Positions 13,041 through 36,404 are shown, numbered from the stretch's first letter. The stretch is 64,000 nucleotides of DNA from Candidatus Micrarchaeota archaeon (GCA_043812915.1 JBDRLQ010000007.1:3502-67501), one strand, 5' to 3'. The notes: generated by a model from the sequence alone, not told the origin. Numbers and translations are program-made.

Positions 13041-15083
13041 TCAACCACCTGCGGTTGTTTCCGCGAAGCCGAGGTATTCCATCCTGAAATCAAAGGTTCT
13101 CATGCTCTCGAAGCCGTCCTCGTCAGAGACTTTTATTATGAATGCATCATCCCTCTCCAGCGTCTGCGCGGCGAGAATCCTCTGCTGATTCGCCTTTGCC
13201 TTGAGGGCGGCCTGCGCGGAGCCAAGGACAAAGTCCGCTACGATGTCCTCCGCAGCCGCTGTCAGGAAGCCGACGACTGGTATTTCCTTTGGAAGGAAAG
13301 TCACTATACCTATTGTCAGCTTGACCCCTTCTACTGTTAGGTCCAGGGATCGGTAAACCGTCTCGCCTGTGCTCTGCGATTGGGATATGTCGCTGATTCC
13401 CTGGATTATGTTCCCCGTGCTCTGGGTCACTTCATAAGTGCTTTTCACAAGAACGACGACCGGCACCGCGTTGGTCGCAAACTTTGATGGCATTTCGACC
13501 GCCTTCTTCACAAGGTGTGTCTTCACAACGCTGTAGACGCCGTTTATGGCCGCCCCCTTGCCGACCCCCATCATCTCCCTGGCGAAAACGATTTCGTTCT
13601 TGTTAAGGCCCCGCGCGGGGGACATCCACTGGACGGTCTCCATGTTCTTTTCAGACGCGAAGCTATACTCCCGCTCCCTGTCGTAGACGACGTGGCTGTG
13701 CCCGGGTTCGAACTCCCCCCCGAAATTGGTGATTGTGTATACCCATGCCTTTGAGCCGTCGGGATCCTGGATATTAATGCGGATATTGTGCATAAGGTAG
13801 GCCTGGGCCGGATCAGGCTCAATGCTGACAGAAGTTATCACCGGGGCCGGCGAGCGCATCTCAAGCTCCCCGCTCCCGAAAGCGGTCCAGTCGTCTCGCT
13901 CGTCATGCTTGGAAACCTGGGCACTAACCTCAAGGCCGTACGGAAGGCTCTCCCAATCGGTCCTGTAAATTGAATTTAATGACGGGAAGGAAAGGGTGGC
14001 CTGCACTATGCCGAACTCGTCGGTGTATTTGTATGCGTCCCTGAAGCCCCATATCCCCAGCACCCCGCTGTTCTTCGGGTCATTGACGCGCAGATATACT
14101 CTCGCCCCCTTTACAGGGTCTCCGGTGGAATTTAGGACTGTCACGAATATCTCAGCGCTGTCCCTTCCATTGAGGAACACGGATGGCTTGCTGAACGAAA
14201 CGGAAACTATTGGCGGCTCAAGGTTCTTCTCTATCGCTATGCACTGGCCTGATGAGGTATCGCATCCATTGTAGCAATAGTAAGCTCCGGTGTAGGCGCA
14301 TCGGCCTTCTGAAGGCTCGCAATGCCCCCCGTAATTGCTGTAATCCCCAGCGCAGGCGAATTCCGGGCAGATAACTCCATCGCACCCCCTTTCCGGGACC
14401 ACCCCGCTGTATCCGCAGCTAGTTTCCATGCAGGAGAGATAGGTGCTGTCGCATCCCGAGTGGCAGCCGCCGTTCCCTTCTCCGCATGACTGGTAGCAGG
14501 AGAGGTGCGGGCGGACGCAGATCTGCTGGCATTCCGGCAGCTCCGATATGTCGATTTCAGGCGGCTCTGGCCCCTGCGGAATATCATCGTCCGGGAAAGA
14601 GTTTCTGCACATATAGTCGCAGCTTCCAATATATGCGGCACATGGGTCATTATCGGTTGTGCAGCGGGAGATGCAGTCCTGCAGGCTTGAATATGCAGGG
14701 CAGGCGCTATCGCCTGCGGCATCGCCATCATCAACCTTTGAGCAGACCGAGCAGAATTCCCCGCGCGGGCAGTTCGTAATTAGCGTCTCCTCGTTAGTGA
14801 AGCATCCATATCCTGCCGGGCAGTCCGAGTCGCTTCTGCACTCGGCGTATGAGCCTTCGCCCTCTCCCTCGAAGGGGCAATAGCATTCGCACGGCTCTCC
14901 CTGCGGGCAGGAGCATGCCAGATAGCCATGGGATGCTTCATCCCACACGCCCTCGCAGTCCGTGGTGCATGGGATTCCCCCTGTCCCTCCGCAGAGGAAG
15001 CAGTCCGAAGCTCCTGCTGGGCACCCATCTGCGAATGAGGCCTGAAGGAGGAAGAGGAGCATGAGCAGCGCCGCGTTTCTCAT
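13041..15083 (-). CDS. large secreted cysteine-rich protein with Ig-like (Big-type) middle region (hypothetical)
   Basis: Start MRNAALLMLLFLLQASFA chosen because the upstream 190 codons of the track ORF overlap the opposite-strand ogt gene. Roughly the first 290 aa are very Cys-rich (ECRSDSDCPAGYGC...). Then SAEIFVTVLNSTGDPVKGARVYLRV. Confidence 0.7.
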   Translation of the reverse strand: MRNAALLMLLFLLQASFADGCPAGASDCFLCGGTGGIPCTTDCEGVWDEASHGYLACSCPQGEPCECYCPFEGEGEGSYAECRSDSDCPAGYGCFTNEETLITNCPRGEFCSVCSKVDDGDAAGDSACPAYSSLQDCISRCTTDNDPCAAYIGSCDYMCRNSFPDDDIPQGPEPPEIDISELPECQQICVRPHLSCYQSCGEGNGGCHSGCDSTYLSCMETSCGYSGVVPERGCDGVICPEFACAGDYSNYGGHCEPSEGRCAYTGAYYCYNGCDTSSGQCIAIEKNLEPPIVSVSFSKPSVFLNGRDSAEIFVTVLNSTGDPVKGARVYLRVNDPKNSGVLGIWGFRDAYKYTDEFGIVQATLSFPSLNSIYRTDWESLPYGLEVSAQVSKHDERDDWTAFGSGELEMRSPAPVITSVSIEPDPAQAYLMHNIRINIQDPDGSKAWVYTITNFGGEFEPGHSHVVYDREREYSFASEKNMETVQWMSPARGLNKNEIVFAREMMGVGKGAAINGVYSVVKTHLVKKAVEMPSKFATNAVPVVVLVKSTYEVTQSTGNIIQGISDISQSQSTGETVYRSLDLTVEGVKLTIGIVTFLPKEIPVVGFLTAAAEDIVADFVLGSAQAALKAKANQQRILAAQTLERDDAFIIKVSDEDGFESMRTFDFRMEYLGFAETTAGG

Positions 15084-15133
15084 GCTTTTGCTAATCCAGG
15101 AAAGTAATATATCCTTTTTCCTGGCAAGAGAGG

Positions 15134-15457
15134 ATGATGAATCCCACCCCATTTGAGAAGAAAGTATATGCCGCCTGCTCCAGGATAAGGAAAGGCAGGG
15201 TATCCACTTACGCGGAAATCGCCAAGGCAATCGGCAATCCAAAGGCGCCCAGGGCCGTTGGAAACGCCCTGAACCGAAATCCCTACAAAACAGTGCCCTG
15301 CCATCGGGTTGTCCGCAGCGACGGAAGAATAGGCGGATTCGCAAGGGGAACCGGGAACAAGGAGAAGATGCTCCGCTCTGAAGGCGTGGGGATAATGAAA
15401 GGGATGATAAGCGGTTTTGGCAGGGCATTCCAGCCGCTTCAGAAGCCTCTGGGCTGA
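15134..15457 (+). CDS. ogt: methylated-DNA--protein-cysteine methyltransferase, single-domain (C-terminal MGMT domain only)
   Basis: Active-site PCHRVV, and helix-turn-helix YAEIAKAIGNPKAPRAVGNALNRNP. Only 107 aa. Confidence 0.85.
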   Translation: MMNPTPFEKKVYAACSRIRKGRVSTYAEIAKAIGNPKAPRAVGNALNRNPYKTVPCHRVVRSDGRIGGFARGTGNKEKMLRSEGVGIMKGMISGFGRAFQPLQKPLG

Positions 15458-15509
15458 TGCAGTTTTTTATGCTTTTTCTAATTAATATCTCCAAGATGCC
15501 AATGAGCAG

Positions 15510-16010
15510 GTGTTCTACATGAAAAAAGAAACTCCGTATATGAAATCTGAAACAGGATGCTGCCCGAAGTTCGACCCAAAGCCTTGGGATGAAAAGGAAT
15601 TCGACTGGAAGGACAAGCTTTTTGTTAAGGACAGGGTGACTAGCATATTCCACATCCCGCTCAACTTCGGGAGCGTAATCAAAAGGAACATGGAGAAGAT
15701 GGAGAAGGCAGATGCCCTGGCCCCGGAATGGCTTCTTCTTTCTGATGAGAATTCCCTATGGGGCGCGGACGTCTACTTCGCTGTTACTACCAAGGTCCCT
15801 GGATGCGAGAATGTGAAATTTTCAGGGACATTCCTCTCAAAGGTCTTTGAGGGCGATTATAAGGACACGGGCAAGTGGGCCGAGCAGATGAAAGGTTATG
15901 TGAAAGCAGATGGCAGGAAGCTCAAGAAGATGTACTTCTACTACACCACATGCCCCAAATGCGCCAAGCACTATGGCAAGAACTACGTTGTCATACTCGC
16001 GAAAGTCTAG
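15510..16010 (+). CDS. conserved hypothetical protein (CCPKFDP...CPKC family seen in methanogens)
   Basis: GCCPKFDPKPWDEKEFDWKDKLFVKD...LSDENSLWGADVYF...YYTTCPKCAKHYGKNYVVILAKV. I recall similar proteins annotated only generically. Confidence 0.6.
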   Translation: MFYMKKETPYMKSETGCCPKFDPKPWDEKEFDWKDKLFVKDRVTSIFHIPLNFGSVIKRNMEKMEKADALAPEWLLLSDENSLWGADVYFAVTTKVPGCENVKFSGTFLSKVFEGDYKDTGKWAEQMKGYVKADGRKLKKMYFYYTTCPKCAKHYGKNYVVILAKV

Positions 16011-16053: not shown

Positions 16054-16629
16054 ATGTCATCCAAACTGATTCCCATATTGCTGCTGGTGCTGCTCCCATC
16101 AGTTTCCTTTGCCGGGGGAACATGCGCCTACGAGGCCTTCACAAAAGCCTGCAATAACTGCCCATTCGATGCCCTAGGAAAGATAGATGAGAAGTGCTTC
16201 AAAGGATACGAGTCCCAGGGCACCACGTGCCTGGCAACGACCTATCCTGGGATGAGCCTCTCATATACTTTTGGCAACTGTCCGCAGATGGATGAGTGTG
16301 TGCAGAGGCTCAGCTCATGCAAGGAGGCGCACAAGAGCGGCTCCGATGCAAGGGACTGCAACAATCAGGAGATGATTGAGTGCTTCAGGATGGGGGACCG
16401 CTGCGCTGATGCGGCGAATGATGTCTGCAGCGGGGGGAAGACTGAAGGGGAGGCCGGATTCGATAACGCTTCAGCAGGAGGCGATGAGCCCCCACCGGCA
16501 CCACCTCCAGAGCAGCCGCCACAATATCCTCCCAAACCAGTGGGGGAGGCTCCAATGTGGGACTTCCTATGCGATATTTGGTTTATCCTGCCTATGCTGG
16601 CAGTGCTGGCATTCATAAGAAGGGAGTAA
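16054..16629 (+). CDS. secreted Cys-rich protein with Pro-rich stalk and C-terminal TM anchor (hypothetical)
   Basis: Signal peptide, about 14 Cys in the ectodomain, EPPPAPPPEQPPQYPPKP linker, hydrophobic tail ending IRRE. Confidence 0.65.
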   Translation: MSSKLIPILLLVLLPSVSFAGGTCAYEAFTKACNNCPFDALGKIDEKCFKGYESQGTTCLATTYPGMSLSYTFGNCPQMDECVQRLSSCKEAHKSGSDARDCNNQEMIECFRMGDRCADAANDVCSGGKTEGEAGFDNASAGGDEPPPAPPPEQPPQYPPKPVGEAPMWDFLCDIWFILPMLAVLAFIRRE

Positions 16630-21048: not shown

Positions 21049-22419
21049 CTATCCGACCTTCCAGGCATGCACTATGCTATTGCCGTCTGCATCCGCTAGC
21101 CGCTCGAATATATAGAGCAGGCCGTTCTCCTGGTCATATGCCGCGGCTCCAAGAGAATACATCTTGTCCATCTCATAGTCATAGCCAGGCTCGAAGAGCA
21201 CGTTGTCGATGCTCATCACGGCGTAGGGCTGCGGCTCCCACGTTTCCATCTCTCCCCTTGCCACGGATGCCAGGCCGGCAGGGTCGAAGAACAGAATCTG
21301 CGCCTGTATGCTCTCGGACCACCATCCCCTCCCGTCATGCGGCCAGTCCGGAACTTCCGGATACGCCTCTCCTGGGTCGCCGGATGTCGGCCAGACAACT
21401 CCATTGGAAAATCCATACCAGGTATTGCCCATGCCCTTTGTGCCGACGAGAATCATCGCGGATTTCTCACCGGAAGTCAGCCACGCGCCTCCGGACCATT
21501 CATCAGATTCAGCGAATCTGTCCATCGCCTGTGACTCATCACTTACAATCACAAGGCTGTCGACTCCTTCTTCTCCATAAAGGAGAAGCGGGGTGACCTG
21601 CTCAAGGGTGCTTCCAGGCTCCGGAGGATTGCCCTCGTTATACGGGCCAATCGCATAAAGCGCCGGCCCTCTTCCTGACCACAGGCCGTCGCGGAACCTT
21701 CCGGTCGCGAGCCTCAGTCCCGGCGTGTTCGCAGAAGCCCATTCCTGTGGAATTTCGAACATGTAATCATTTGTGGTGTAGCTGCTCCAGCCATCCACAT
21801 ACCACGGGCCAGCGGTCCGCGGGTTCGACAAATCAAGCTCGCTCCACCCATGCGTAGGGTTGTTTTCCCCCTCAAGGTGCTGGCCCCAGGAGAAGTAGAG
21901 CTTTCCTGAATCCTGGCCATCCTGGGCAGGGAGGTATTGCAGCCCTGCCCGCGGAATCTCAAGCTCCCCGAACATGCCGCCGGTAATGTCGGCAAACGGC
22001 TGCAGCGTCTCCGCGGTATTCAGCTCTTCGATATTATCAGAAATAACTGGGACAGGAATGCTTATCTCTGAGACCATCTGGTGGTGGTCATGGCCGACAG
22101 CAAAAATGGAACCCGGGAATCCGTCATCAGCGCCGGCAGCGTCCCCATCAGGATAATATGTGGCGGCATATCCGCTCCAGAGCCAGTTCGAGCCGCCGGA
22201 CTCTCCGGGGAGCCTGAATGCCCCGAGATAAACCAAATCAGACGGGGCAATTAATTCTCCGGGTATATATTCCGGAAGCCCGGGAGCTTCAATCGAAGTG
22301 CCCTGCCCTGGCGGCTCTCCTCCTGGTGGCGCCTCAGCCTGCGGCCCTTCTCCAGGGGCGGACGGCGTGATGCATCCAAAAAGCAAAATCCCAATAACAA
22401 GCAATACCATCAGTCTCAT
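21049..22419 (-). CDS. secreted lipoprotein, function unknown
   Basis: MRLMVLLVIGILLFGC lipobox. ATG 22419 has AGGAG 9 nt upstream and sits 2 nt after the upstream stop. No recognised catalytic motif. Confidence 0.65.
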   Translation of the reverse strand: MRLMVLLVIGILLFGCITPSAPGEGPQAEAPPGGEPPGQGTSIEAPGLPEYIPGELIAPSDLVYLGAFRLPGESGGSNWLWSGYAATYYPDGDAAGADDGFPGSIFAVGHDHHQMVSEISIPVPVISDNIEELNTAETLQPFADITGGMFGELEIPRAGLQYLPAQDGQDSGKLYFSWGQHLEGENNPTHGWSELDLSNPRTAGPWYVDGWSSYTTNDYMFEIPQEWASANTPGLRLATGRFRDGLWSGRGPALYAIGPYNEGNPPEPGSTLEQVTPLLLYGEEGVDSLVIVSDESQAMDRFAESDEWSGGAWLTSGEKSAMILVGTKGMGNTWYGFSNGVVWPTSGDPGEAYPEVPDWPHDGRGWWSESIQAQILFFDPAGLASVARGEMETWEPQPYAVMSIDNVLFEPGYDYEMDKMYSLGAAAYDQENGLLYIFERLADADGNSIVHAWKVG

Positions 22420-22420
22420 A

Positions 22421-23644
22421 TCATTCATCTCCTGCACTCGCGCTGAACCAGTCAATCAGGTCCCCTTCATCATTTATCACAGAAACAAGCATCTTATCCC
22501 CGTCGATTTCCATCCTCGAGAAATGGTAATCCTCGGCAGCCGCGACTACGAACGGGTAGTTATGGTCCGGGAGGTAGAGTGGAGCGCCGCCCCCTCCGAG
22601 CGTGAGATACTGTATGCCGTCCACCTCCGCCCTTGCGTAATAATGGTTGTGCCCCTGCACAACTACCTTCACGCCATTCTCCAGGAAAACAGGGTGCAGG
22701 TCCTGCTGCACCACCTCGTTGTCATCATGCGGATACACATTCGGGCCCGGAATACCGTATGCGCTGTATCCTGGCTGGTGGAACATCACAACCTTCCAGG
22801 GTCTGTCCGTCCCCCGAATGTCATCAACAATCCAGTCGTACTGCGCGCTGCCGTTGGAATAGTTTGCCGTGTACTGGTCAATCACAGTGACATGCAGGGG
22901 GCCGTAATCGAAAGAATAGTAGAAATGCCCCTCCTCCGCAAAAAGCGGGTTCGGCCAGTATTTCCGGAATAACATTCCCTCATCAGGGACATCAGCGACA
23001 TACTCCCCGTTGTCGAAGTTCTCATGGTCGCCGATTGCCCCCATCATGGGCATCACCGAAAGGAATTCTTGGATATTCGGCCGCTTCCTGCTGAAGAATT
23101 CGTCATCCCAGTGCGCCTCGTCCAGGCCGAAGGTGACATAGTCGCCCGCATGCAAGGCGATGGTCTGCCTCCTGCCCTGATCCTGCATCATGTCGGCTAG
23201 CAGCTGTCCAAGGACCGCATCCTGCGCGCCGGGATTTGTCCTGGTGTCCCCGTATGCGTAGAATGTGAGCGAATCCGCATCATCTGCCGGTGCGGTCCTG
23301 AAGGACGATTCGTACTCCTGCCCGTCAATTGTAATCCTGTAGTTTATCTTCCTGTCCGGCCCGAGGCCGGTTATCTTGTGCTGGAACTGGTGCCCGTCAC
23401 TTCCGCTTCCATACTCCGAGAGCTCGGTCTTCCCAAGCTCGAAGTAGCCGCCCTCGCCCCATTCCAGGACCGCGCTCCCGGGCGTCCCATGAGTCTGGAA
23501 CAGCACAATCATCGATGACTGGTCGCCAGGGTAAATCAGGTACGGGCCTTTCCTCAGGGCATCCTGCGCTGCATCTCCTTCCGTGCACCCGAAAAGGAAA
23601 AGTGAAATAGCAAGCAGCCCGATAATCATCGGCTTGGTCTTCAT
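22421..23644 (-). CDS. secreted metallophosphoesterase (purple acid phosphatase-like) lipoprotein
   Basis: Lipobox LFLFGC. N-terminal FN3-like PAP domain (GPYLIYPGDQSSMIVLFQT...YRI). Metallophosphatase motifs YGDTR, HAGDY, GDHEN, VQGHNH. Confidence 0.8.
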   Translation of the reverse strand: MKTKPMIIGLLAISLFLFGCTEGDAAQDALRKGPYLIYPGDQSSMIVLFQTHGTPGSAVLEWGEGGYFELGKTELSEYGSGSDGHQFQHKITGLGPDRKINYRITIDGQEYESSFRTAPADDADSLTFYAYGDTRTNPGAQDAVLGQLLADMMQDQGRRQTIALHAGDYVTFGLDEAHWDDEFFSRKRPNIQEFLSVMPMMGAIGDHENFDNGEYVADVPDEGMLFRKYWPNPLFAEEGHFYYSFDYGPLHVTVIDQYTANYSNGSAQYDWIVDDIRGTDRPWKVVMFHQPGYSAYGIPGPNVYPHDDNEVVQQDLHPVFLENGVKVVVQGHNHYYARAEVDGIQYLTLGGGGAPLYLPDHNYPFVVAAAEDYHFSRMEIDGDKMLVSVINDEGDLIDWFSASAGDE

Positions 23645-23723
23645 GGACTTTCTATGCAATCGCAGAATAATAAATGTTTTGAGCACAGTCGCCCTATAAA
23701 GCTTTTAAACTTTTAACTTTTCT

Positions 23724-26700
23724 ATGCTCCCCATGAGGAGTCTCCCGTTTTTGGCGCTCGCCCTTGCTCTGCTCATGGCGCTTTCTGGATGCATGGATGT
23801 CTGCCCGGAATCCTGCGATGATTACAACCCATGCACCGACGATTTCTGTTCCTCAAGGACAAATTACCATTGCGCGCACATGCGCCTTGACGGGGCCCAG
23901 GGCAGCTGCTTCGGGTCGGTCCCGGGCGAGCAGTGCCAGAGGTACTCCTGCGTGGCCGGGAGCTGCATGATACAGGAGCAGCTCGGATGCGTGCCTGACA
24001 ATGGCGACGATGACGATGGCAGCACAACCGTAACAGGCGAGGCCGACTGGACCTTCATAGTCTATCTGGACGCGGACAACAACCTGGAGAGCGCGGGCCT
24101 TATAGACTTCAATGAGATGGAGGCCGCCGGCTCCACTGATGATGTGAACATTCTCGTGCAGATGGACCGGATTGAGGAATCCGATTATTATCTTGGCTAT
24201 GATTCCTCAAACGGCGACTGGGCTGATGCAAGGCGTTTCTACATAGTGCAGGACACCGACATGGATAGGATGAGGAAGAGCGAGCTTGAGGCCCTTGGAG
24301 AAGTGAACATGGGGGCTGGGGCGACGCTCAAGGAATTCCTGCTCTGGGCGGTTGAGGAATACCCCGCCAAGCACTACGCGGTCATCATCTGGGACCATGG
24401 CGCAGGATGGGACTATTCCGCATCTGGATATGAGGAATACGGCATGGTGGCCTTCGATGACACGAGCGGGGGAGATGGGATAACCCTTGCCGAGCTCGGC
24501 TCCGCTCTATCCGCAATGAAGGATAAGATTGGCAGGAAAATCGACATCATCGGCTTCGACGCCTGCCTCAATGGAATGCATGAGATTGATTATGAGATTG
24601 CCGATTATGCCCACATAAGAATCGCCTCGGAGGAACTTGTCCCCGGCGATGGATGGGATTACAGGAATTCGCTTTCCGCCCTTGTGGTCAATCCTGGAAT
24701 GAGCCGGGAGGAGTTGGCGACAACGATAGTTACCGATTTCGAGAGGTTCTATGTGCTTAGCGGCGAGGATGAGATGATTACCCTTTCCGCGGTGGACCTG
24801 GGCAAGGTTGGAACCCTCAGCAGCGCGATAGACGAGTTCTCCGCAACCATCGCAGGGCGCATGAGCGGTCAGACCGCGACCGAAGTCGGAAGGGCAAGGG
24901 CTTATGTAGAGGAATACGGGAATGACGAATACGGGTTCATAGACATAACCGACTTTGCGAAAATCATGCATGATGTCACCCAAGATCCGGACATAAAGGC
25001 CTCGGCAAAGAAGGTGGTCGAGGCGCATGATGATTCCATAATCGCCGAAATCCACGGGAATGGCCGCTCGCACTCATACGGGCGTTCGATATATTTCCCC
25101 AGGACAAGCTCGGTTTATGTCTCCAACTACAGGACCGACTCAAGGTTCTCGACAGAGACTGCCTGGGATGCGTTCCTGCGCTCATATTATACCGGCCAGA
25201 CCGCGGACCTGAGCGCGCCGACTGTCAGGGGAATGTCAGCCAGCTCGGACACTGTCAGCGCGGAGAGCCCGATGGAGATCACTGCGACAGTATCCGGAAA
25301 CCAGATTGCTGATGTTCAGCTTGAGGTGTACATGGAAGGAGACCCTGAATACGGGGACTACATCGTGCTGCTCAACTACCTTCCGTATTCATCCCCCAGC
25401 TTCATGCTTGGGGATGGGAGCACGATACCGTTCTGGCTTGACGGGGACAACCCGCTTGAGATAAAATGGAACGGATACGGAATCGCGGTGGAGGATGACG
25501 AGGGATATCTATTCATCCCGCTCGAGCCGGTCGAGAGGGGGAGCCAGTACTATTTCATCTCAGGTGAGTACACCCAGAAGGGGGCGATCAGCCCTGTCTA
25601 TGCATCCCTCGTGTTCGATTTCGATACTGGGGCGCTTGAATATGTCTGGGACCATGAGAACGTGATGGAGCTGCAGCCGAACAAGGGCGACAGGTTCTCA
25701 GCATATATATACATAATAGACTTTGATGAGGATGATGAGTACTATGTCCCCTGGACAGAGCTTATCTACGGGGAGACCGGCTTCAACCTGGGGTACTATC
25801 CCCTGCCCGCGGGCGGGTATTACCTGAACCTCGTCGCCGAGGACATCGCGGGCAACACCCAGTCTGATTCCATATACATCACTGTCGGCGACTACGTGGA
25901 GACCGGATACGAGTGCTATGACGGGACTATTGACGGTTACTGCTCTTACATCTCTCCTGGCTACTATTGTGAGGCTGGGGAACTGGCTTATGATGAGTTC
26001 TGCCTTGAGAGCCTCACATGCATGGACGGCACGCCGGACGGCTTCTGCTCATTCGACTATGACGGATACATGTGCACTGGCGGAACGCTTGAGTACAGCT
26101 CAGAATGCCTTGACTCGAACTTCTGCTATGACGGGACTCCAATCGGGGAGTGCTCATACTTCTACAATGGATATCTCTGCGCTGATGGGGATTTCGTCCT
26201 GGACGAGGCGTGCTATGATGAGTTCTACACCGATGAATGCTCGGACGGCACAATGAACGGGTTCTGCTCCAATGAGAATCCGGGCTACTACTGTTTCTTC
26301 GGCGAGCTTCTGGATGATCCTGAATGCGTCGGAAGCTGCCCTGACGGGACTCCGAATGAGTACTGTTCCTTCACGATGGAAGGATACTCCTGTTACGATG
26401 GCGTGCTCAAGGCGGATGAATCCTGTGTTGAGAGTTATGGTTCGGAGACGGGATGCCAGGACGGCACGCAGCATGGATACTGCTCACTGCTCTATGACGG
26501 CTACTGGTGCAACAACGGCGAGCTTGAGTATGAAGACTCCTGTCTCGCAGGAGACTATGGCCTCGACTGCCCGGACGGCACTGAGCATGGGTACTGCTCG
26601 GATGCCAATCCCGGCTACGGATGCTGGGACGGATTCCTTGAGGAATACGCGGAGTGCGGGGCGGTTCTTGACTATGACTGCCCGGACGGCACGCTTAGCG

Positions 26701-27101
26701 GATACTGCTCGAATCCAAATCCGGGATATTACTGCTTCTATGGGGAGCTTATTGAGGATGAGGAATGCATCGGCAGCTGTGCCGATGGCACGCCCAACGG
26801 CTACTGCTCATATTCAAAGGATGCGTACGCCTGCTGGGATGGGCTGCTCAAGCCGGACGATTACTGCGCCAGCTCTTATGATGAGGATACGGACTGCCAG
26901 GACGGCACTGAGCACGGCTCCTGCTCGAACTCCAACCCTGGATACTTCTGCTGGTCTGGAGGGCTGCTTGAGGATGAGGAATGCATCGGCAGCTGCGAGG
27001 ATGGGACACCCAACGGCTACTGCTCATATTCAAAGGATGCATACGCCTGCTGGGGCGGGGCGCTTGAGCCTGACGAGTATTGCACCGGGGCTTTCCAGTA
27101 G
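23724..27101 (+). CDS. secreted clostripain-like (peptidase C11) cysteine protease with Cys-rich N-terminus and 11 C-terminal 4-Cys modules
   Basis: Lipobox LMALSGC. WTFIVYLDADNNLE, VIIWDHGAGW (His) and IIGFDACLNGMHE (Cys) fit the C11 catalytic dyad. The C-terminal 395 aa are repeats. Confidence 0.8.
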   Translation: MLPMRSLPFLALALALLMALSGCMDVCPESCDDYNPCTDDFCSSRTNYHCAHMRLDGAQGSCFGSVPGEQCQRYSCVAGSCMIQEQLGCVPDNGDDDDGSTTVTGEADWTFIVYLDADNNLESAGLIDFNEMEAAGSTDDVNILVQMDRIEESDYYLGYDSSNGDWADARRFYIVQDTDMDRMRKSELEALGEVNMGAGATLKEFLLWAVEEYPAKHYAVIIWDHGAGWDYSASGYEEYGMVAFDDTSGGDGITLAELGSALSAMKDKIGRKIDIIGFDACLNGMHEIDYEIADYAHIRIASEELVPGDGWDYRNSLSALVVNPGMSREELATTIVTDFERFYVLSGEDEMITLSAVDLGKVGTLSSAIDEFSATIAGRMSGQTATEVGRARAYVEEYGNDEYGFIDITDFAKIMHDVTQDPDIKASAKKVVEAHDDSIIAEIHGNGRSHSYGRSIYFPRTSSVYVSNYRTDSRFSTETAWDAFLRSYYTGQTADLSAPTVRGMSASSDTVSAESPMEITATVSGNQIADVQLEVYMEGDPEYGDYIVLLNYLPYSSPSFMLGDGSTIPFWLDGDNPLEIKWNGYGIAVEDDEGYLFIPLEPVERGSQYYFISGEYTQKGAISPVYASLVFDFDTGALEYVWDHENVMELQPNKGDRFSAYIYIIDFDEDDEYYVPWTELIYGETGFNLGYYPLPAGGYYLNLVAEDIAGNTQSDSIYITVGDYVETGYECYDGTIDGYCSYISPGYYCEAGELAYDEFCLESLTCMDGTPDGFCSFDYDGYMCTGGTLEYSSECLDSNFCYDGTPIGECSYFYNGYLCADGDFVLDEACYDEFYTDECSDGTMNGFCSNENPGYYCFFGELLDDPECVGSCPDGTPNEYCSFTMEGYSCYDGVLKADESCVESYGSETGCQDGTQHGYCSLLYDGYWCNNGELEYEDSCLAGDYGLDCPDGTEHGYCSDANPGYGCWDGFLEEYAECGAVLDYDCPDGTLSGYCSNPNPGYYCFYGELIEDEECIGSCADGTPNGYCSYSKDAYACWDGLLKPDDYCASSYDEDTDCQDGTEHGSCSNSNPGYFCWSGGLLEDEECIGSCEDGTPNGYCSYSKDAYACWGGALEPDEYCTGAFQ
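25913..27098 (+). repeat. Eleven tandem ~33-39-aa modules C-x-DGT-x2-G-x-CS-x4-GY-x-C-x2-G-x-L-x4-5-C inside the C11 protease gene
   Basis: Modules start CYDGTIDG, CMDGTPDG, CYDGTPIG, CSDGTMNG, CPDGTPNE, CQDGTQHG, CPDGTEHG, CPDGTLSG, CADGTPNG, CQDGTEHG, CEDGTPNG. Segments 26754-26841 and 26970-27057 are about 93% identical at the DNA level by eye. Confidence 0.85.
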
Positions 27102-29580: not shown

Positions 29581-30405
29581 ATGACAAAGACAATATTATT
29601 GCTATTGGTATTCGGGCTCCTGTTCTTCGGATGCACAGCGCCTCCGGAGACCTCGGCGCCTGAACAGGTGGAAGCTCCAGCCGGGCCAGGGTCACCGCAT
29701 CCTGAGCCTGGAGTCTCACCGGAACCGGAGCCTGAAACTGCTCCTGAGCCTGAGGTGCCCCCAGAAGCGCCTGAGGATGGCACGCTCATCCCAGCTCATC
29801 CCCAAGGAACGCAGGTCCTGATGACTGGCCGTTCTGTGGCCTACTACTGGACTGAATACATGGGCCTTGAGTGGACTTGCGATGACGAGGAGTGCGCAAC
29901 AGGCAGCCCGAGGGGCAACTATGATGACTATTATTTCATCTACTACGAGCTTGAGTATCCCCCGGATATCGCAAGGTCCGCCGCTGACGCGGTCGACATG
30001 TACGGCGGCGATGCAGAAGTGGTCTTCTTCAAGTTCTGCTTCGTTGATTTCGCGGCTGACGACTCCCTTCAGAACGCATATGACAATGAGGGGCTGATAG
30101 AGGATGTCTACCAGTATGTTGTAGTTGAGCGGGGCAAGAAGCTCATAATAGGGAACGCTTTGCCCCAGGTCCGGGCGCACACCGAGCCCGCTTTGGTCGC
30201 CAACCACCGGGAATTCAACGCATGGCTTGACAATTTCGCGGCGACGCACGGCAATGTGCAGGTTCTTGACCTGAATGGCATGCTCACGGACAGCTCAGGA
30301 AACCTGATGAGCGAGTATGCGGTTTCGGCTGATGACTCGCACCTGAACAGCAACGGCTACGCGAGAATCACTCCGGAATTCCTTGAGCTTATCGAGAGCG
30401 CTTAA
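29581..30405 (+). CDS. secreted lipoprotein, tentatively SGNH/GDSL-like hydrolase fold
   Basis: Lipobox LLFFGC, Pro/Glu-rich linker. C-terminal DDSHLNSNGY resembles SGNH block V (DxxH). Other blocks are not clear. Confidence 0.4.
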   Translation: MTKTILLLLVFGLLFFGCTAPPETSAPEQVEAPAGPGSPHPEPGVSPEPEPETAPEPEVPPEAPEDGTLIPAHPQGTQVLMTGRSVAYYWTEYMGLEWTCDDEECATGSPRGNYDDYYFIYYELEYPPDIARSAADAVDMYGGDAEVVFFKFCFVDFAADDSLQNAYDNEGLIEDVYQYVVVERGKKLIIGNALPQVRAHTEPALVANHREFNAWLDNFAATHGNVQVLDLNGMLTDSSGNLMSEYAVSADDSHLNSNGYARITPEFLELIESA

Positions 30406-33334: not shown

Positions 33335-33640
33335 ATGACAATGGCTGAAGAAACATGCAACGATAAGAAATGCTACAAACATTCCGGCCTGAAGGTCCGC
33401 GGAGAGCGGCTAGAGGGCAAGATTGTTAGCTCGAAAGGAAAGAATACTGTCGTCATAGAGAGGGACAGGACGCAGTTCTTCCCGAAGTACCAGAGATGGG
33501 CAAAGGAGCGCTCCCATATGGCCGCGCACAACCCTCCCTGCATCGCAGCGAAGGTAGGCGACATCGTCGCGATTGCCGAGACGAGGAAGCTCAGCAAGAC
33601 TAAGGCATGGACAGTGCTGGAAGTAATCAAGCCAGCCTAA
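33335..33640 (+). CDS. rps17: 30S ribosomal protein S17 (uS17)
   Basis: CNDKKCYKHSGLKVRGERLEGKIVS...VGDIVAIAETRKLSKTKAW. Confidence 0.95.
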   Translation: MTMAEETCNDKKCYKHSGLKVRGERLEGKIVSSKGKNTVVIERDRTQFFPKYQRWAKERSHMAAHNPPCIAAKVGDIVAIAETRKLSKTKAWTVLEVIKPA

Positions 33641-33651
33641 AGGTGGTAATC

Positions 33652-34050
33652 ATGAAGGGACTTAGCGGAAAGGTATCAAGAACCCTGACACTGGGCACCC
33701 AGCTCACGTGCAGCGACAACAGCGGTGCGAAAGTGCTGAATATAATCGGCGCGCTAAAGTTGAAGGGGACGAGGGGAAGGAATCCTACTGTCGGCGTCGG
33801 AAATATCGTGATTGCATCAGTAAGGAAAGGAAAGCCTGACATGGTGAAGAAGGTCGTAAAAGCCGTCATCATAAGGCAGAAGAAGGAATACCGGAGGCCG
33901 AACGGCATGCGTGTGATGTTTGAGGACAACGCCGCGGTTCTGGTGACCGACGACTTCCTTCCGGTGGCGACCGAAATCAAGGGTGTGGTCGCAAGGGAAA
34001 TCACCGAGAGGTTCCCCAAGGTTGCGGCTATCGCAGCAGGGGTTGTGTGA
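33652..34050 (+). CDS. rpl14: 50S ribosomal protein L14 (uL14)
   Basis: LTCSDNSGAKVLNIIG...IASVRKGKPDMVKKVVKAVIIRQKK. SD AAGGTGG. Confidence 0.95.
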   Translation: MKGLSGKVSRTLTLGTQLTCSDNSGAKVLNIIGALKLKGTRGRNPTVGVGNIVIASVRKGKPDMVKKVVKAVIIRQKKEYRRPNGMRVMFEDNAAVLVTDDFLPVATEIKGVVAREITERFPKVAAIAAGVV

Positions 34051-34060
34051 GGGGAGTAGA

Positions 34061-34588
34061 ATGAAATCTGATACCGAAAGAAAGCATTTTCATAAGGAAA
34101 AGAAGCACAAGAGGAAAAAGAGGCTCAGTGTCCACCTCTCAAAGGAGCTTCGCGGAAAGCTTAAGGTGAAGAAGCGCTCCCTGCTCCTGCGCAAGGACGA
34201 CTCTGTCCGCGTGATGCGCGGTCCTGGAAAAGGCAAGGAAGGCAGGGTCACTCGCGTTAGCGTCATGAAGAGGAAGGTTTATGTGGACGGCGTAACCACG
34301 AACACCGCAAAAGGGCGGGAGATCCTGGTTGCGCTTGAGGCATCCAACCTGCTGCTAATCTCTCTTGAGGCGACCGAGGAGAGGAAGAAGTTCTTCTCCG
34401 TAGACGTGTTCAAGAAGCCGAAAGCCGAGAAGCCGAAGGAGAAGCCCGCGCCAAAGGAAAAGGGAGAGGCGAAGGTGGAAGTGAAGAAGGTCGAGAAGCC
34501 CGAGGCACAGAAATCCGCGCCAAAGATTGAGGCTGCAGCAAAGTCTGCACCGGCAGTGCCGGGCAAAGCCGGAAACTCCGGCATCTGA
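34061..34588 (+). CDS. rpl24: 50S ribosomal protein L24 (uL24) with long K/P/A/E-rich C-terminal tail
   Basis: KOW motif DDSVRVMRGPGKGKEGRVTRV. The tail starts around KKPKAEKPKEKPAPKEKGEAK. Confidence 0.9.
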   Translation: MKSDTERKHFHKEKKHKRKKRLSVHLSKELRGKLKVKKRSLLLRKDDSVRVMRGPGKGKEGRVTRVSVMKRKVYVDGVTTNTAKGREILVALEASNLLLISLEATEERKKFFSVDVFKKPKAEKPKEKPAPKEKGEAKVEVKKVEKPEAQKSAPKIEAAAKSAPAVPGKAGNSGI

Positions 34589-34616
34589 ATAATACTAATA
34601 GATAAATGGTGATTAT

Positions 34617-35336
34617 TTGGGAAAAAGAGGAGGAACAACGCATCTGAAAAGGCTCGCGACCCCGAAGGCCGTGCCCATTTCAGACAAGAAGGCGAATGAA
34701 TGGATAATCAGGCAGGAGCCTGGCCCCCACCCGAGGGAACGCTCCATTGCGCTCGGAGTGCTGCTCAGGGATGTGCTCAAGCTCGTCAAGACCGCAAGGG
34801 AAGTGAAGACGGTGCTGACCGGCAGGCTAGTCCTGGTGGATGGGAAAGTGCGGACCAGCGAGAAGTTCCCGGTCGGGTTTATGGATGTCGTCTCATTGCC
34901 GAAGATGAAGAAGCACTACAGACTGGTCGTTGACTGGAAGGCGAGGCTTGTCCCTGTCGAAGTTGATGACAAGGGCTCGGCAACCAAGCTGCTCCAGATA
35001 TCCAGGAAGCACACGGTTAAGGGAGGGAAGCTCAACATCACGCTTCATGACGGCAAGAACATGCTCGCTGACAACAACCTGCATGTGGGGGACACAATCT
35101 CCGTGTCGCTTCCTGATGCGAAGATACAGTCCCATCTCAAGCTCGAGAATGGTGCGCGCTGCCTCATAGTCGAGGGAAAGCACGCAGGAAACCTCGTCAC
35201 CCTCAAGGGGATAATCCCGAGGGCCGGTGGAAAGCCGAACGAGGCGAAGGTTGAGGGAAAAGACGCAGAATTCATCACTGTCGCGAAGTATCTCTTCGTT
35301 GTTGGCGGTGATTTCGAGGTAGGTACCCATGGCTGA
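34617..35336 (+). CDS. rps4e: 30S ribosomal protein S4e (eS4)
   Basis: TTG start after GGTGAT. GKRGGTTHLKRLATPK...EKFPVGFMDVVSL. Confidence 0.95.
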   Translation: MGKRGGTTHLKRLATPKAVPISDKKANEWIIRQEPGPHPRERSIALGVLLRDVLKLVKTAREVKTVLTGRLVLVDGKVRTSEKFPVGFMDVVSLPKMKKHYRLVVDWKARLVPVEVDDKGSATKLLQISRKHTVKGGKLNITLHDGKNMLADNNLHVGDTISVSLPDAKIQSHLKLENGARCLIVEGKHAGNLVTLKGIIPRAGGKPNEAKVEGKDAEFITVAKYLFVVGGDFEVGTHG

Positions 35337-35847
35337 AAGCAATCCGATGAGGGAGCTGCTCGTTGAGAAGGTCACCGTGAACATCGGTGTCGGCTCACCT
35401 GGCGATAGGCTCGATTACGCGAAGCAGCTGGTCAGCAGGCTCGCGGGTGACCGGACCCCAGTAATAACCAAGGCAAGGAGGAGGGAGCCGGTCTTCAAGC
35501 TCAGGACGGGCCTTCCAATCGGCGTGAAGATTACCCTAAGGGGAAAGCCGGCGACGGAATTCCTCGAGAAGGCGTTCGCGGCGAAGAGGAAGATGATACA
35601 CAAGAGGAACTTCGATAAGGAAGGGAACTTCTCCTTCGGTGTCGCGGAATACATTGATTTCCCCGGAGCGAAGTATGACCCGGAAATCGGCATGTTCGGT
35701 TTCGATGTCTGCGTAACCATGAAGAGGAAGGGAAAGCGTGTCACGCAGAGGAAGCTGCACAAAGCTAAAATCGGCAACGCGCACAGGATTTCCCAGGATG
35801 AAGCAGTAGCCTTCGTGCGGGACAAGTTCGGAGTGACTGTTGAGTGA
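35329..35847 (+). CDS. rpl5: 50S ribosomal protein L5 (uL5)
   Basis: [11 protein letters not shown]...[21 protein letters not shown]...[11 protein letters not shown]. Confidence 0.95.
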
Positions 35848-35860
35848 TGGTGATTCTCTC

Positions 35861-36019
35861 ATGACTGATAAAGATGATGATATGAAAGGAAAGGGGAGAA
35901 GGGTTTGCCGAAACTGCGGCAATGCAAGAGGCCTTATCCGCAAATACCAGCTTTACGTTTGCAGGAGATGCTTCAGGGAAATGGCTGAAAGCATTGGCTT
36001 CAGGAAATACGGTGGATGA
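35861..36019 (+). CDS. rps14: 30S ribosomal protein S14 (uS14, zinc-binding type; below ORF-track cutoff)
   Basis: Hand translation: [60 protein letters not shown]. Expected position between L5 and S8. Confidence 0.9.
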
Positions 36020-36023
36020 TACT

Positions 36024-36404
36024 ATGGATTATCTTGCTGAAGCGCTTAACACGATAAAGACGCATGAAAATGTCGGGCAGGAACTCTGCTCGGTCAGGGC
36101 CACCAAGCTGATTGAGAAAGTGCTCAACGTACTGAAAGAGCACAAGTATCTAAAGAGCTTCGAGACGGTCGACAATGGCAGGGGGGGATTCTTCAATGTC
36201 CAGCTGGATGGCAGGATTAACGACTGCGGGGTCATCAAGCCGCGCATGCCTGTCAAGAAGACTGACTGGGCCAAGAAGGAGCAGCAGTACATCCCGGGTA
36301 TCGGGGTGGGGCTGCTCATTGTATCCACTTCTGAGGGTGTCATGACAAATGCTGATGCCGAGGAGAAGAAAATCGGAGGGAGGCTTCTAGCCTACGTCTA
36401 TTAG
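36024..36404 (+). CDS. rps8: 30S ribosomal protein S8 (uS8)
   Basis: MDYLAEALNTIKTHENVGQ...GLLIVSTSEGVMT...GGRLLAYVY. Confidence 0.95.
   Translation: MDYLAEALNTIKTHENVGQELCSVRATKLIEKVLNVLKEHKYLKSFETVDNGRGGFFNVQLDGRINDCGVIKPRMPVKKTDWAKKEQQYIPGIGVGLLIVSTSEGVMTNADAEEKKIGGRLLAYVY

What the first reader, a model, noticed from the sequence alone, without database searches (positions are those of the whole stretch)
23724..27101. Clostripain-family protease fused to eleven novel-looking 4-Cys modules
The 1125-aa lipoprotein has four parts:
- A Cys-rich N-terminal segment (CPESCDDYNPCTDDFC, like the CxDxNxCTxDxC 'Dictyostelium/Myxococcus' repeats).
- A peptidase C11 core with the His (DHGAGW) and Cys (FDACLN) dyad.
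- A ~250-aa beta-rich spacer.
- Eleven tandem modules with the strict pattern C-x-DGT-x2-G-x-CS-x4-GY-x-C-x2-G-x-L-x4-5-C.

I do not recognise this module. Its regularity (four Cys, invariant DGT and GY) suggests a small disulfide-knotted or metal-binding domain, used as a stalk or as a ligand-binding array. A large exported cysteine protease on such a scaffold could act on host or prey surface proteins.
Basis: partly seen in the sequence, partly recalled or inferred. Interest (0 to 1): 0.6.

Follow-up and report, generated by a model that had tools for sequence, protein, structure and literature searches.

The report
Archaeal surface protease with cysteine-repeat arm
A small-genome archaeon encodes a membrane-anchored clostripain-type cysteine protease whose far end carries eleven tiny four-cysteine modules; these are a shortened form of an extracellular repeat that is common in such archaea but has no entry in the Pfam, NCBIfam or solved-structure libraries searched here.

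Summary
ORF 23724-27101 (+) encodes 1125 aa in five parts:
- a signal peptide with a lipobox Cys;
- a 10-Cys N-terminal knob;
- a Peptidase_C11 domain (E 7e-53) whose His225, Cys281 and S1 Asp279 align with clostripain;
- a 240-aa all-beta region, modelled as Ig-like sandwiches (pLDDT 91);
- eleven modules, each exactly 30 aa from first to last Cys.

No Pfam, NCBIfam or PDB sequence match covers the module, and Foldseek found nothing for a confident tri-module model.

The module is not unique to this protein. An HMM of the 11 copies finds 144 representative proteins. Most carry a 48-aa, six-Cys long form (CxDGTxxGxCSxxKPxYCxxGxL...CGCPxG...C). The window's module is that form without its CGCP tail (hhalign probability 97%). 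The long form occurs in 69 of 201 genomes sampled from the window's phylum. It is fused to CAP, transglutaminase-like, M60, C25 and M10 domains. The few named records are Woesearchaeota or Micrarchaeota hypothetical proteins.

The C11-plus-array architecture is rare: four other proteins in 5.8 billion clusters.

Best reading: an Arg/Lys-specific surface protease with a distal, disulfide-braced reaching or binding arm. Function is inferred, not shown.

This scan's index held no look-alike on other DNA.

The parts
23694..23701 (+). TATA-like box CTATAAAG, centred about 26 nt before the ATG. This suggests an archaeal promoter and a leaderless or very short-leader mRNA.
   Evidence: Read directly from the sequence. 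Inference only; the sigma-70 scan is not informative for an archaeon.
23724..23792 (+). Signal peptide with a lipobox-like end (MLPMRSLPFLALALALLMALSG-C23).
   Evidence: Translation. The G-C is invariant in all five orthologs. Neighbouring exported proteins in the window end their signal peptides in LFGC or FFGC. Lipid attachment itself is inferred.
23793..24038 (+). N-terminal Cys-rich knob (aa 24-105, 10 Cys; CPxSCDDxNxCTxDxC...).
   Evidence: Dicty_CTDC is sub-threshold: 18.2 and 24.5 bits against a cut-off of 27. The knob is conserved in the orthologs. It recurs at the N-terminus of other exported proteins in five same-family genomes at 40-43% identity, E 2e-11 to 3e-14.
24060..25184 (+). 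Peptidase C11 (clostripain family) catalytic domain, aa 113-487.
   Evidence: PF03415 E 7.3e-53, 180.8 bits. Clostripain 9cip_A E 1.1e-12 and 6n9j E 4e-10. It is the only C11 gene in the genome.
24396..24398 (+). Catalytic His225 (WDHGAGW).
   Evidence: Aligns with the H of clostripain ..NHGGG.. and of 6n9j ..SHGDGW... Invariant in the five orthologs. Role of the dyad: PMC4850288.
24558..24566 (+). Asp279-Ala-Cys281 (FDACLNG): predicted S1 specificity Asp and catalytic Cys.
   Evidence: Aligns with FDACLMG of clostripain and FDACYM of 6n9j. Invariant in the orthologs. The Asp two residues before the Cys is the proposed S1 residue of PmC11 (Asp177) and clostripain (Asp229) (PMC4850288).
25185..25907 (+). 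Conserved all-beta middle region (aa 488-728), modelled as Ig-like beta-sandwiches.
   Evidence: AlphaFold2 on a 30-row alignment: pLDDT 91.3, pTM 0.83, 19 strands. Foldseek gives only weak hits, all to tandem Ig/FnIII-type sandwiches (SiiE 9.5e-4, RbmA, arrestins, macroglobulin domains). The same region follows the C11 domain in 77 of the listed homologs; those that carry names are Chloroflexota.
25908..27089 (+). Array of eleven four-Cys modules (aa 729-1122), C-x8-C-x8-C-x10-C, with linkers of 3-9 residues.
   Evidence: Regex and HMM coordinates. Tri-module AlphaFold2 model: pLDDT 83.6, with a beta-hairpin plus a short turn in each module. hhalign to the long six-Cys form: probability 97.4%.
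26754..27057 (+). Recent di-module duplication. Modules 10-11 copy modules 8-9 at a spacing of 216 nt.
   Evidence: 26754-26841 and 26970-27057 are 80/88 identical. The copies are 79% identical over 202 nt. Modules 10-11 have no counterpart in P0003 or P0004.

Best explanation
The gene encodes a cell-surface cysteine endopeptidase of a small-genome (1.3 Mb) archaeon. The few named relatives of the repeat are Woesearchaeota and Micrarchaeota, which suggests a DPANN-type organism.

Proposed order from the membrane outward:
- lipid-anchored Cys23;
- a 10-Cys knob;
- a clostripain-family (C11, clan CD) catalytic domain with an intact His225/Cys281 dyad and S1 Asp279, so it should cut after Arg/Lys;
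- Ig-like beta-sandwich domains that travel with this C11 subfamily;
- a distal arm of eleven 30-residue modules.

Each module is a beta-hairpin mini-domain, most likely braced by two disulfides. It is the short form of a repeat that these archaea use widely on exported enzymes.

Proposed mechanism:
- The arm extends from the enzyme and binds or reaches a target surface or polymer.
- The protease then cleaves extracellular or partner-cell surface proteins, for nutrition or for contact.

Shown here: the gene, the domain identities, the catalytic residues, the module family and its distribution.

Inferred: lipidation, disulfides, substrate specificity, binding, and the biological target.
For: Gene and domain identity:
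- Intact 1125-aa ORF.
- PF03415 at E 7e-53.
- Dyad and S1 Asp aligned with clostripain and invariant in five orthologs. Roles of these residues: PMC4850288. An archaeal C11 enzyme, globupain, is active and prefers Arg (PMC10104074).

Export and disulfide capacity:
- Signal peptide with a conserved G-C.
- The genome encodes a membrane-anchored DsbA-like thioredoxin-fold protein with a CPYC motif.

The module as a domain family:
- Confident module fold.
- 144 representative proteins match at E<=1e-3.
- The short form equals the first 28 columns of the long form.
- C5 and C6 are missing together in the short form, as expected if they pair with each other.
- The long form is present in 69 of 201 genomes of the phylum.
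- Its partners are exported enzymes: CAP 14, transglutaminase-like 14, M60 2, C25 1, M10 1.

Signs of constraint on the arm:
- The array is C-terminal, and so distal to an N-terminal anchor.
- Modules at the same position in orthologs are 60-77% identical, against 43-57% between modules of one protein.
- Non-Cys identity of the array is comparable to that of the catalytic domain.
- The array has 4 Lys+Arg against 83 Asp+Glu, so it offers few sites to an Arg/Lys-specific enzyme.
Against: - No activity, expression or localisation data exist.
- The loop after His225, where PmC11 and clostripain are autoprocessed at Lys/Arg, has no Lys or Arg up to residue 265. Activation, if needed, must differ, or the enzyme may be regulated otherwise.
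- Disulfide pairing could not be read, because the tools return no model coordinates. Four Cys per module could instead bind metal.
- In eight other proteins whose domain positions I could read, the modules lie between the N-terminal anchor and the enzyme. That fits a passive spacer role for the family.
- No VKOR-type oxidase partner was found, in a genome that is 89.6% complete.
- The extreme acidity is shared by other exported proteins that carry the short module. It may reflect habitat rather than self-protection.
Confidence: 0.6

Rival explanations
1. The array is only a rigid, inert spacer or bulk surface coat, like other stalk repeats. It has no binding function of its own, and the protease is a general scavenging enzyme.
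For: - In eight other module-bearing proteins with a recognised enzyme domain, the modules lie between the N-terminal anchor and the enzyme.
- Copy number varies at the C-terminal end among orthologs: 9, 9, 11, 15 and 18.
- A recent di-module duplication is present.
- No ligand-binding family was detected.
Against: - Here the array is C-terminal and free-ended. It therefore spaces nothing from the membrane.
- The first nine positions are kept in order, with position-specific conservation about as strong as in the catalytic domain.
Confidence: 0.25
2. The four Cys of each module bind a metal ion (a Zn- or Fe-binding mini-domain) rather than forming disulfides. The array would then be a metal-dependent fold or a metal store or sensor.
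For: - There are exactly four invariant Cys per 30 residues.
- Small-genome archaea of this kind are often reported from anoxic habitats, where exposed disulfides are less stable (general knowledge).
- One module-bearing protein also has a Cu-binding_MopE motif elsewhere in its chain.
Against: - The spacing C-x8-C-x8-C-x10-C has no CxxC-type knuckle.
- The protein is exported.
- A membrane-anchored DsbA-like CPYC protein is encoded in the genome.
- The long form has six Cys in an EGF-like C..C..C..CxC..C order. The short form lacks exactly the last two, which is the behaviour of a disulfide pair.
- AlphaFold2 folds the module confidently without a ligand. This is weak evidence.
Confidence: 0.1
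3. The C11 domain is a non-catalytic or tightly latent pseudo-protease, and the protein is mainly an adhesin.
For: - The canonical Lys/Arg autoprocessing site in the loop after the catalytic His is absent (PMC4850288).
- The score against the clostripain equivalog model is far below its cut-off: 57 against 550 bits.
Against: - His225, Asp279 and Cys281 are invariant across five orthologs that share only 46-77% identity in this domain.
- The domain matches the full length of PF03415, positions 1-358 of 359.
- The processing loop differs among characterised C11 enzymes: Lys147 in PmC11 and Arg181/Arg190 in clostripain (PMC4850288); Lys137/Lys144 in globupain (PMC10104074).
Confidence: 0.05

Closest known systems
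Clostripain (Clostridium histolyticum; PDB 9cip) and PmC11 (Parabacteroides merdae), MEROPS family C11, clan CD
   Same: - Homologous catalytic domain (PF03415 E 7e-53; 9cip E 1e-12).
- His/Cys dyad and the S1 Asp two residues before the Cys align.
- An exported enzyme expected to cut after Arg/Lys.
   Different: - Not an equivalog of clostripain (TIGR02806: 57 against 550 bits).
- No Lys or Arg at the autoprocessing loop.
- About 640 extra residues: the all-beta region and eleven Cys modules, plus an N-terminal Cys knob and a lipobox. Neither characterised enzyme is described with these.
Clostripain-related peptidases of about 1000 aa in Chloroflexota (for example Ardenticatenaceae, Anaerolineae and 'Candidatus Leptofilum' records)
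   Same: The C11 domain and the 245-aa all-beta region are shared as one unit, at 31-37% identity over about 57% of the query.
   Different: The one read in full (L009) has no Cys-rich knob and no Cys modules, and its C-terminal part is unrelated. These are bacterial proteins; the window is archaeal.
Globupain, an archaeal C11 protease from an Archaeoglobales MAG (PMC10104074)
   Same: An archaeal C11 enzyme with a His/Cys dyad and an experimentally shown Arg preference. It shows that archaeal family members can be active.
   Different: Globupain is a 52-kDa single-unit zymogen processed at Lys137 and Lys144. It has no repeat array and no lipobox architecture of this kind.
The six-Cys 'CxDGTxxGxCSxxKPxYC...CGCPxG...C' repeat of small-genome archaea (uncurated; named records are hypothetical proteins of Woesearchaeota and Micrarchaeota)
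   Same: The window's module is homologous to its first 28 columns (hhalign probability 97.4%, E 1.5e-11). It shares the same CxDGT, CS and G-L landmarks and the same 30-residue Cys1-Cys4 span.
   Different: - The window's form lacks the CGCP...C tail (Cys5 and Cys6).
- Its period is 33-39 aa rather than about 48 aa.
- It has GY instead of KP before Cys3, with Cys3 shifted by one residue.
- It has no N-x-S/T sequons; 27 of 63 long modules have at least one.
- It sits C-terminal to the enzyme rather than N-terminal.
EGF-like domains (Pfam EGF and cEGF families)
   Same: The long archaeal form has the C..C..C..CxC..C order. A few copies give sub-threshold cEGF hits on the CGCPxGY tail. The model of the short module shows a hairpin that carries Cys3 and leads to Cys4.
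   Different: No EGF-type Pfam hit on the window's protein even at E<=10. No significant PDB sequence or fold match. The window's module lacks the CxC...C sub-domain. The resemblance is a lead, not membership.
Gingipains (family C25), clan CD proteases with C-terminal adhesin and Ig-like domains (own knowledge)
   Same: The design principle is the same: a surface-attached clan CD Arg/Lys protease joined to Ig-like and adhesive modules. One protein with DGT modules carries a C25 domain.
   Different: Different peptidase family, different accessory domains, and a different secretion and anchoring route. This is an analogy only.

Membership tests
Peptidase C11 (clostripain family, clan CD) | Full-length match to PF03415 above the gathering score | tested here: met
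   180.8 bits against 25.8; model positions 1-358 of 359; aa 113-487.
Peptidase C11 (clostripain family, clan CD) | Catalytic His then Cys dyad at the homologous positions | tested here: met
   DHGAGW aligns with NHGGG, and FDACLNG with FDACLMG of clostripain 9cip. The same holds with 6n9j. Both residues are invariant in five orthologs.
Peptidase C11 (clostripain family, clan CD) | Acidic S1 residue (Asp two residues before the catalytic Cys), which gives Arg/Lys specificity | tested here: met
   Asp279 in FDAC, aligned and invariant. Role taken from PMC4850288.
Peptidase C11 (clostripain family, clan CD) | Lys/Arg autoprocessing site in the loop after the catalytic His. This is typical of characterised members; it does not define the family. 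| tested here: not met
   No Lys or Arg between residues 226 and 265. The clostripain Arg181/Arg190 region aligns with WDYSASGYEEYG.
Peptidase C11 (clostripain family, clan CD) | Cys-dependent endopeptidase activity | not testable with these tools
   Needs expression and an enzyme assay.
Clostripain proper (NCBIfam TIGR02806, equivalog) | Score above the equivalog cut-off | tested here: not met
   57.3 bits against 550. It is a family member, not an ortholog of clostripain.
Dicty_CTDC repeat (PF00526) | Score above the gathering cut-off for the N-terminal CxDxNxCTxDxC segment | tested here: not met
   18.2 bits for the whole protein and 24.5 bits for the isolated segment, against 27. Relatives of the knob reach 26.0 bits. 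It is similar but sub-threshold.
EGF-like domain | Six Cys in C..C..C..CxC..C order, with a match to an EGF-type model or fold | tested here: not met
   The window's module has four Cys and no EGF-type Pfam hit at E<=10. Foldseek best E is 2.5. Only the long archaeal form shows the six-Cys order and sporadic sub-threshold cEGF hits.
Archaeal DGT Cys-repeat (uncurated family defined here by alignments A1 and A5) | Profile-profile homology and shared landmarks: CxDGT, G-x-CS, aromatic-C, G-x-L, Cys4 | tested here: met
   hhalign probability 97.4%, E 1.5e-11. The profile of the 11 modules retrieves 144 representative proteins.
Archaeal or bacterial lipoprotein | Signal peptide ending in a lipobox with an invariant Cys; lipid modification | tested here: inconclusive
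   An L-S-G-C motif follows a hydrophobic stretch, and the G-C is conserved in orthologs. Lipidation cannot be tested here.

The most novel reading that the evidence does not exclude
The DGT Cys-repeat may be a lineage-wide surface toolkit domain of small-genome symbiotic archaea, mediating attachment to the partner cell's envelope. On this reading, the C11 enzyme uses its eleven-module arm to dock on the partner's surface layer and cut it open, helping to set up the cell-to-cell contact these organisms depend on.
Probability: 0.12. Interest if true: 0.8.

Novelty: new variant of a known kind. Interest (0 to 1): 0.5.

Why it matters
Many small-genome archaea are thought to depend on other cells (general knowledge). 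How they hold on to partners and feed from them is largely unknown, and their surface proteins are mostly annotated 'hypothetical'.

This work defines a repeat family that has no Pfam, NCBIfam or PDB sequence match. It is found in about a third of the genomes sampled from one phylum. It is attached again and again to exported enzymes: proteases, transglutaminase-like domains and CAP domains.

The C11 protein is a clean test case. It has a predictable activity (cutting after Arg/Lys), a confident module model, and an array whose positions are individually conserved.

A curated model of the repeat would annotate the many hypothetical surface proteins that carry it. The repeat may also be a prokaryotic counterpart of EGF-like extracellular building blocks.

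Tried and rejected
Searches on the module that found nothing:
- Pfam at E<=10 on the array, knob and middle region gave only noise: DUF7630 E 2.8, MetallophosC, Toxin_2, Big_13 E 0.16.
- NCBIfam gave nothing for the module.
- PDB sequence searches with the short and long module profiles gave nothing meaningful; the best hit was NKG2-D at E 0.58.
- Foldseek of the tri-module model found no match with E below about 2 in PDB or BFVD. An EGF, furin-repeat or VWC fold assignment is therefore not claimed.

Searches limited by the tools:
- The word-indexed protein search on the middle region alone found only P0003, a sensitivity limit. This was solved by searching with the full-length alignment.
- The genome-contig scan returned only two bacterial C11 homologs and did not name the window's organism.
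- The tools return no model coordinates, so Cys-Cys distances could not be read.

Other negatives:
- Rfam found nothing in the window.
- The sigma-70 promoter and terminator scan was at background level and is not relevant to an archaeon.
- Four literature searches for the motif or for Cys-rich surface repeats in these archaea found no description.
- No VKOR was found in the genome.
- This scan's own index held no look-alike by sequence or by words.

Rejected readings:
- A halophile 'salt-in' explanation for the acidity: cytoplasmic proteins in the window are not acidic.
- A transglutaminase label for the knob-bearing relatives L019 and L021: Pfam does not support it.
Full report
**1. Observation**

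The window holds an ATG-started ORF at 23724..27101 on the + strand, encoding 1125 residues. A regular expression finds eleven modules. They start at residues 731, 766, 801, 839, 872, 911, 949, 986, 1019, 1058 and 1091. Each spans exactly 30 residues from first to last Cys, with spacing C-x8-C-x8-C-x10-C.

Module 5 has E for the G before Cys2, modules 9 and 11 have AY for GY, module 3 has F for L, and the last spacer is constant.

Against a profile of the modules, each copy scores E 1e-15 to 2e-18 in the whole 1.30-Mb assembly. Nothing else in that genome matches.

**2. Organism and setting**

The window carries an archaeal ribosomal-protein cluster: ORFs at 33607-36404 resemble L14, L24, S4e, L5 and S8 (identified by eye, not profile-tested). 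The assembly is 1.30 Mb in 26 contigs and 89.6% complete. Genomes sampled from the same phylum are 0.7-1.6 Mb. The few named relatives of the repeat are 'Candidatus Woesearchaeota' and 'Candidatus Micrarchaeota' hypothetical proteins. I therefore treat the host as a small-genome archaeon of the DPANN type. The tools withhold its name.

The gene stands alone. The upstream gene is divergent, starting 37 nt away, and the downstream genes are unrelated small ORFs. A CTATAAAG box lies about 26 nt before the ATG, which fits a leaderless archaeal transcript. This is inference.

**3. Anatomy, from the N-terminus**

(a) Residues 1-23 form a hydrophobic signal peptide ending L-S-G-C. The G-C is invariant in all orthologs. 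Three neighbouring exported proteins end their signal peptides in LFGC or FFGC.

(b) Residues 24-105 hold ten Cys. This segment gives a sub-threshold Dicty_CTDC match: 18-24.5 bits against a cut-off of 27. The knob is a portable unit. It recurs at 40-43% identity at the N-terminus of otherwise different exported proteins in five genomes of the same family. One of these also carries a long-form DGT module.

(c) Residues 113-487 match Peptidase_C11 end to end, E 7e-53.

(d) Residues 488-728 are all-beta. With a 30-row alignment, AlphaFold2 gives pLDDT 91.3 and pTM 0.83 with 19 strands. Foldseek finds only weak hits. All are to tandem Ig/FnIII-type sandwiches: SiiE, RbmA, arrestins and macroglobulin domains.

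(e) Residues 729-1122 are the array. The protein ends five residues after the last Cys, with no C-terminal anchor.

**4. The protease**

phmmer against PDB sequences aligns WDHGAGW with the NHGGG of clostripain (9cip, E 1e-12), and FDACLNG with FDACLMG. The clostripain-related protein 6n9j aligns the same way. His225, Asp279 and Cys281 are invariant in five orthologs that share only 46-77% identity in this domain.

In PmC11 and clostripain, the Asp two residues before the catalytic Cys is the proposed S1 residue that selects Arg/Lys (PMC4850288). An archaeal C11 enzyme, globupain, is experimentally Arg-preferring (PMC10104074). So an active, Arg/Lys-directed endopeptidase is the expected function.

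There are two differences from characterised members:
- The score against the clostripain equivalog model is far below its cut-off, 57 against 550 bits.
- The loop after the catalytic His has no Lys or Arg up to residue 265. This is where PmC11 (Lys147) and clostripain (Arg181/Arg190) are autoprocessed. Activation may therefore work differently.

**5. Relatives of the whole protein**

Only four proteins in the 5.8-billion-cluster collection share the C11-plus-array architecture. They are P0002-P0005, at 43-68% identity. P0004 lies in an archaeal assembly next to proteasome and RuBisCO genes. P0002 lies in a genome of the same class but a different family.

The ortholog was not found in 40 genomes of the window's own family, including one of the same genus that is 86% complete. 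C11 homologs occur in 11 of 401 genomes sampled from the phylum.

The C11 domain and the all-beta region travel together in 77 of the listed homologs. Those that carry names are Chloroflexota proteins of about 1000 aa. The one read in full (L009) has an unrelated C-terminus. The catalytic core is thus a known bacterial-archaeal subfamily. The knob and the array are additions of the archaeal lineage.

**6. The module is a family, not a one-off**

A profile of the eleven copies was scored against 1.84 billion representative proteins. It finds 144 at E<=1e-3 and 30 at E<=1e-10. Two forms appear.

| Form | Period | Cys | Where found |
|---|---|---|---|
| Short | 33-39 aa | 4 | The five C11 proteins and a handful of others (P0006, P0007, P0009-11, P0052, P0062, P0094) |
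| Long | about 48 aa | 6 | The majority |

The long form has the spacing C-x8-C-x7-C-x11-C-x-C-x10-C in 103 of 151 six-Cys copies. Its consensus is CxDGTxxGxCSxxKPxYCxxGxLxxxxxxCGCPxG...C.

Profile-profile comparison puts the short form on the first 28 columns of the long one: probability 97.4%, E 1.5e-11. In both forms the Cys1-Cys4 span is 30 residues.

The long form was found in 69 of 201 genomes sampled from the phylum, covering 43 of 102 genera. It was not found in two large families, 0/56 and 0/36.

**7. Not in curated libraries**

- The window's protein gives no Pfam hit on the array at E<=10.
- Among 102 module-bearing proteins scanned, no Pfam family covers the repeat. cEGF appears in one member at E<=1e-3 and as sub-threshold hits on the CGCPxGY tail of two others.
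- NCBIfam has nothing.
- PDB sequence searches with both profiles are empty or noise.
- A tri-module AlphaFold2 model is confident (pLDDT 83.6). Each module shows a bridge residue at Cys2, a hairpin that carries Cys3, and a short turn before Cys4. Foldseek finds no match better than E of about 2 in PDB or in BFVD.
- Four full-text searches found no description.
- This scan's own index held no look-alike.

The six-Cys order of the long form is that of EGF-like domains. The short form lacks exactly Cys5 and Cys6, which pair with each other in EGF domains (own knowledge). This makes a two-disulfide, EGF-N-subdomain-like module a reasonable hypothesis. It is not a demonstrated membership.

**8. 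What the module is attached to**

In 102 scanned proteins the recognised partners are:

| Partner domain | Proteins |
|---|---|
| CAP | 14 |
| Transglutaminase-like core | 14 |
| zf-AN1 | 6 |
| CBS | 4 |
| Peptidase_M60 | 2 |
| C25 | 1 |
| M10 | 1 |
| CBM9 | 1 |

In the eight cases where I could read the positions, the modules lie between the N-terminal signal or anchor and the C-terminal domain. That is the position of a stalk.

The C11 proteins are the reverse. The array is C-terminal and free-ended. With an N-terminal anchor it is the most distal part of the molecule.

**9. Constraint on the array**

- Modules at the same position in orthologs are 60-77% identical, against 43-57% between modules within the protein. 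Module 3 aligns poorly because of a one-residue length difference.
- Non-Cys identity of modules 1-9 (42-59%) is comparable to that of the catalytic domain (46-77%).
- Copy number changes only at the C-terminal end: 9, 9, 11, 15 and 18 modules.
- Modules 10-11 of the window's protein are a recent copy of modules 8-9. Stretches 26754-26841 and 26970-27057 are 80/88 nt identical at a 216-nt spacing.
- The array has 83 Asp+Glu, 4 Lys+Arg, 44 Cys and 45 Tyr. The scarcity of Lys and Arg would protect it from an Arg/Lys-specific enzyme. However, other short-form proteins are equally acidic.

**10. Disulfides or metal?**

In favour of disulfides:
- The protein is exported.
- The genome encodes a DsbA-like thioredoxin-fold protein with an N-terminal membrane anchor and a CPYC motif.
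- The Cys spacing has no CxxC knuckles.
- Cys5 and Cys6 are lost as a pair in the short form.

Against, or open:
- No VKOR was found.

I put metal binding at about 10%.

**11. Best explanation and verdict**

This is a real, intact gene for a surface-anchored C11 cysteine peptidase, most likely specific for Arg/Lys. It is extended by Ig-like sandwich domains and a distal arm of eleven disulfide-braced mini-modules.

The arm most likely reaches or binds a target surface, so that the enzyme can cut extracellular or partner-cell proteins. A purely passive spacer role is the main rival.

- The protease is a new member of a known family.
- The architecture is rare.
- The repeat is a widespread domain family with no match in the curated libraries searched and, as far as the searchable literature shows, undescribed. 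The window carries a shortened variant of it.

Domain identities and distribution are shown. Lipidation, disulfides, specificity, binding and biological role are inferred.

Noticed in passing
window 23793-24038; L019:1408-3246 (+); L021:478-1773 (-): The 10-Cys N-terminal knob (CPxSCDDGNxCTxDxC...) is a portable unit of its own. It sits directly after the signal peptide of otherwise unrelated exported proteins of 431-612 aa in five genomes of the same family. It reaches 26.0 bits against Dicty_CTDC (cut-off 27). One of these proteins also ends in a long-form DGT module.
   Followed up: partly
G000:C3:72434-73321 (L016:1228-2115, +): A 295-aa DsbA-like Thioredoxin_4 protein (E 2e-25) with an N-terminal membrane anchor, a Cys-rich linker and a CPYC active-site motif. 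It is a candidate extracytoplasmic disulfide oxidoreductase for the many Cys-rich exported proteins of this genome. No VKOR partner was found.
   Followed up: partly
window 23724-27101: The 1125-aa protein has no N-x-S/T sequon at all. My rough estimate from its composition is about five. By contrast, 27 of 63 long-form modules from other proteins carry at least one sequon, often at NGT or NAS.
   Followed up: no
window 21049-23686 (-) and 29581-30405 (+): Three neighbouring exported proteins end their signal peptides in LFGC or FFGC: a metallophosphoesterase-like protein, a 468-aa W/G/P-rich protein and a 274-aa protein. Lipobox-type anchoring therefore seems the rule for this organism's surface proteins.
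   Followed up: no
proteins P0026, P0038 and four others among the module-bearing representatives (not in the window): Six of 102 module-bearing proteins begin with a zf-AN1 zinc finger, and four carry CBS domains. Both are normally cytoplasmic. This suggests membrane proteins with a cytoplasmic N-terminal domain and an external DGT-module stalk.
   Followed up: no
L027 (G324:C37, - strand, 712-aa ORF): A C11 homolog in the same order keeps the catalytic domain and the all-beta region but has neither the knob nor the Cys modules. Its N-terminal linker is full of N-x-T/S sequons and it ends in an acidic tail. The accessory parts are therefore swapped freely within the phylum.
   Followed up: partly
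long-form modules in P0012-P0146 (not in the window): 43 of 198 long-form copies have eight Cys rather than six, a third variant of the repeat.
   Followed up: no
window 13041-15653 (-) and 16054-16629 (+): Further Cys-rich exported proteins lie upstream in the window, for example one with ...CPAGYGC... motifs and a 191-aa protein with 12 Cys. They do not match the DGT module profile.
   Followed up: no
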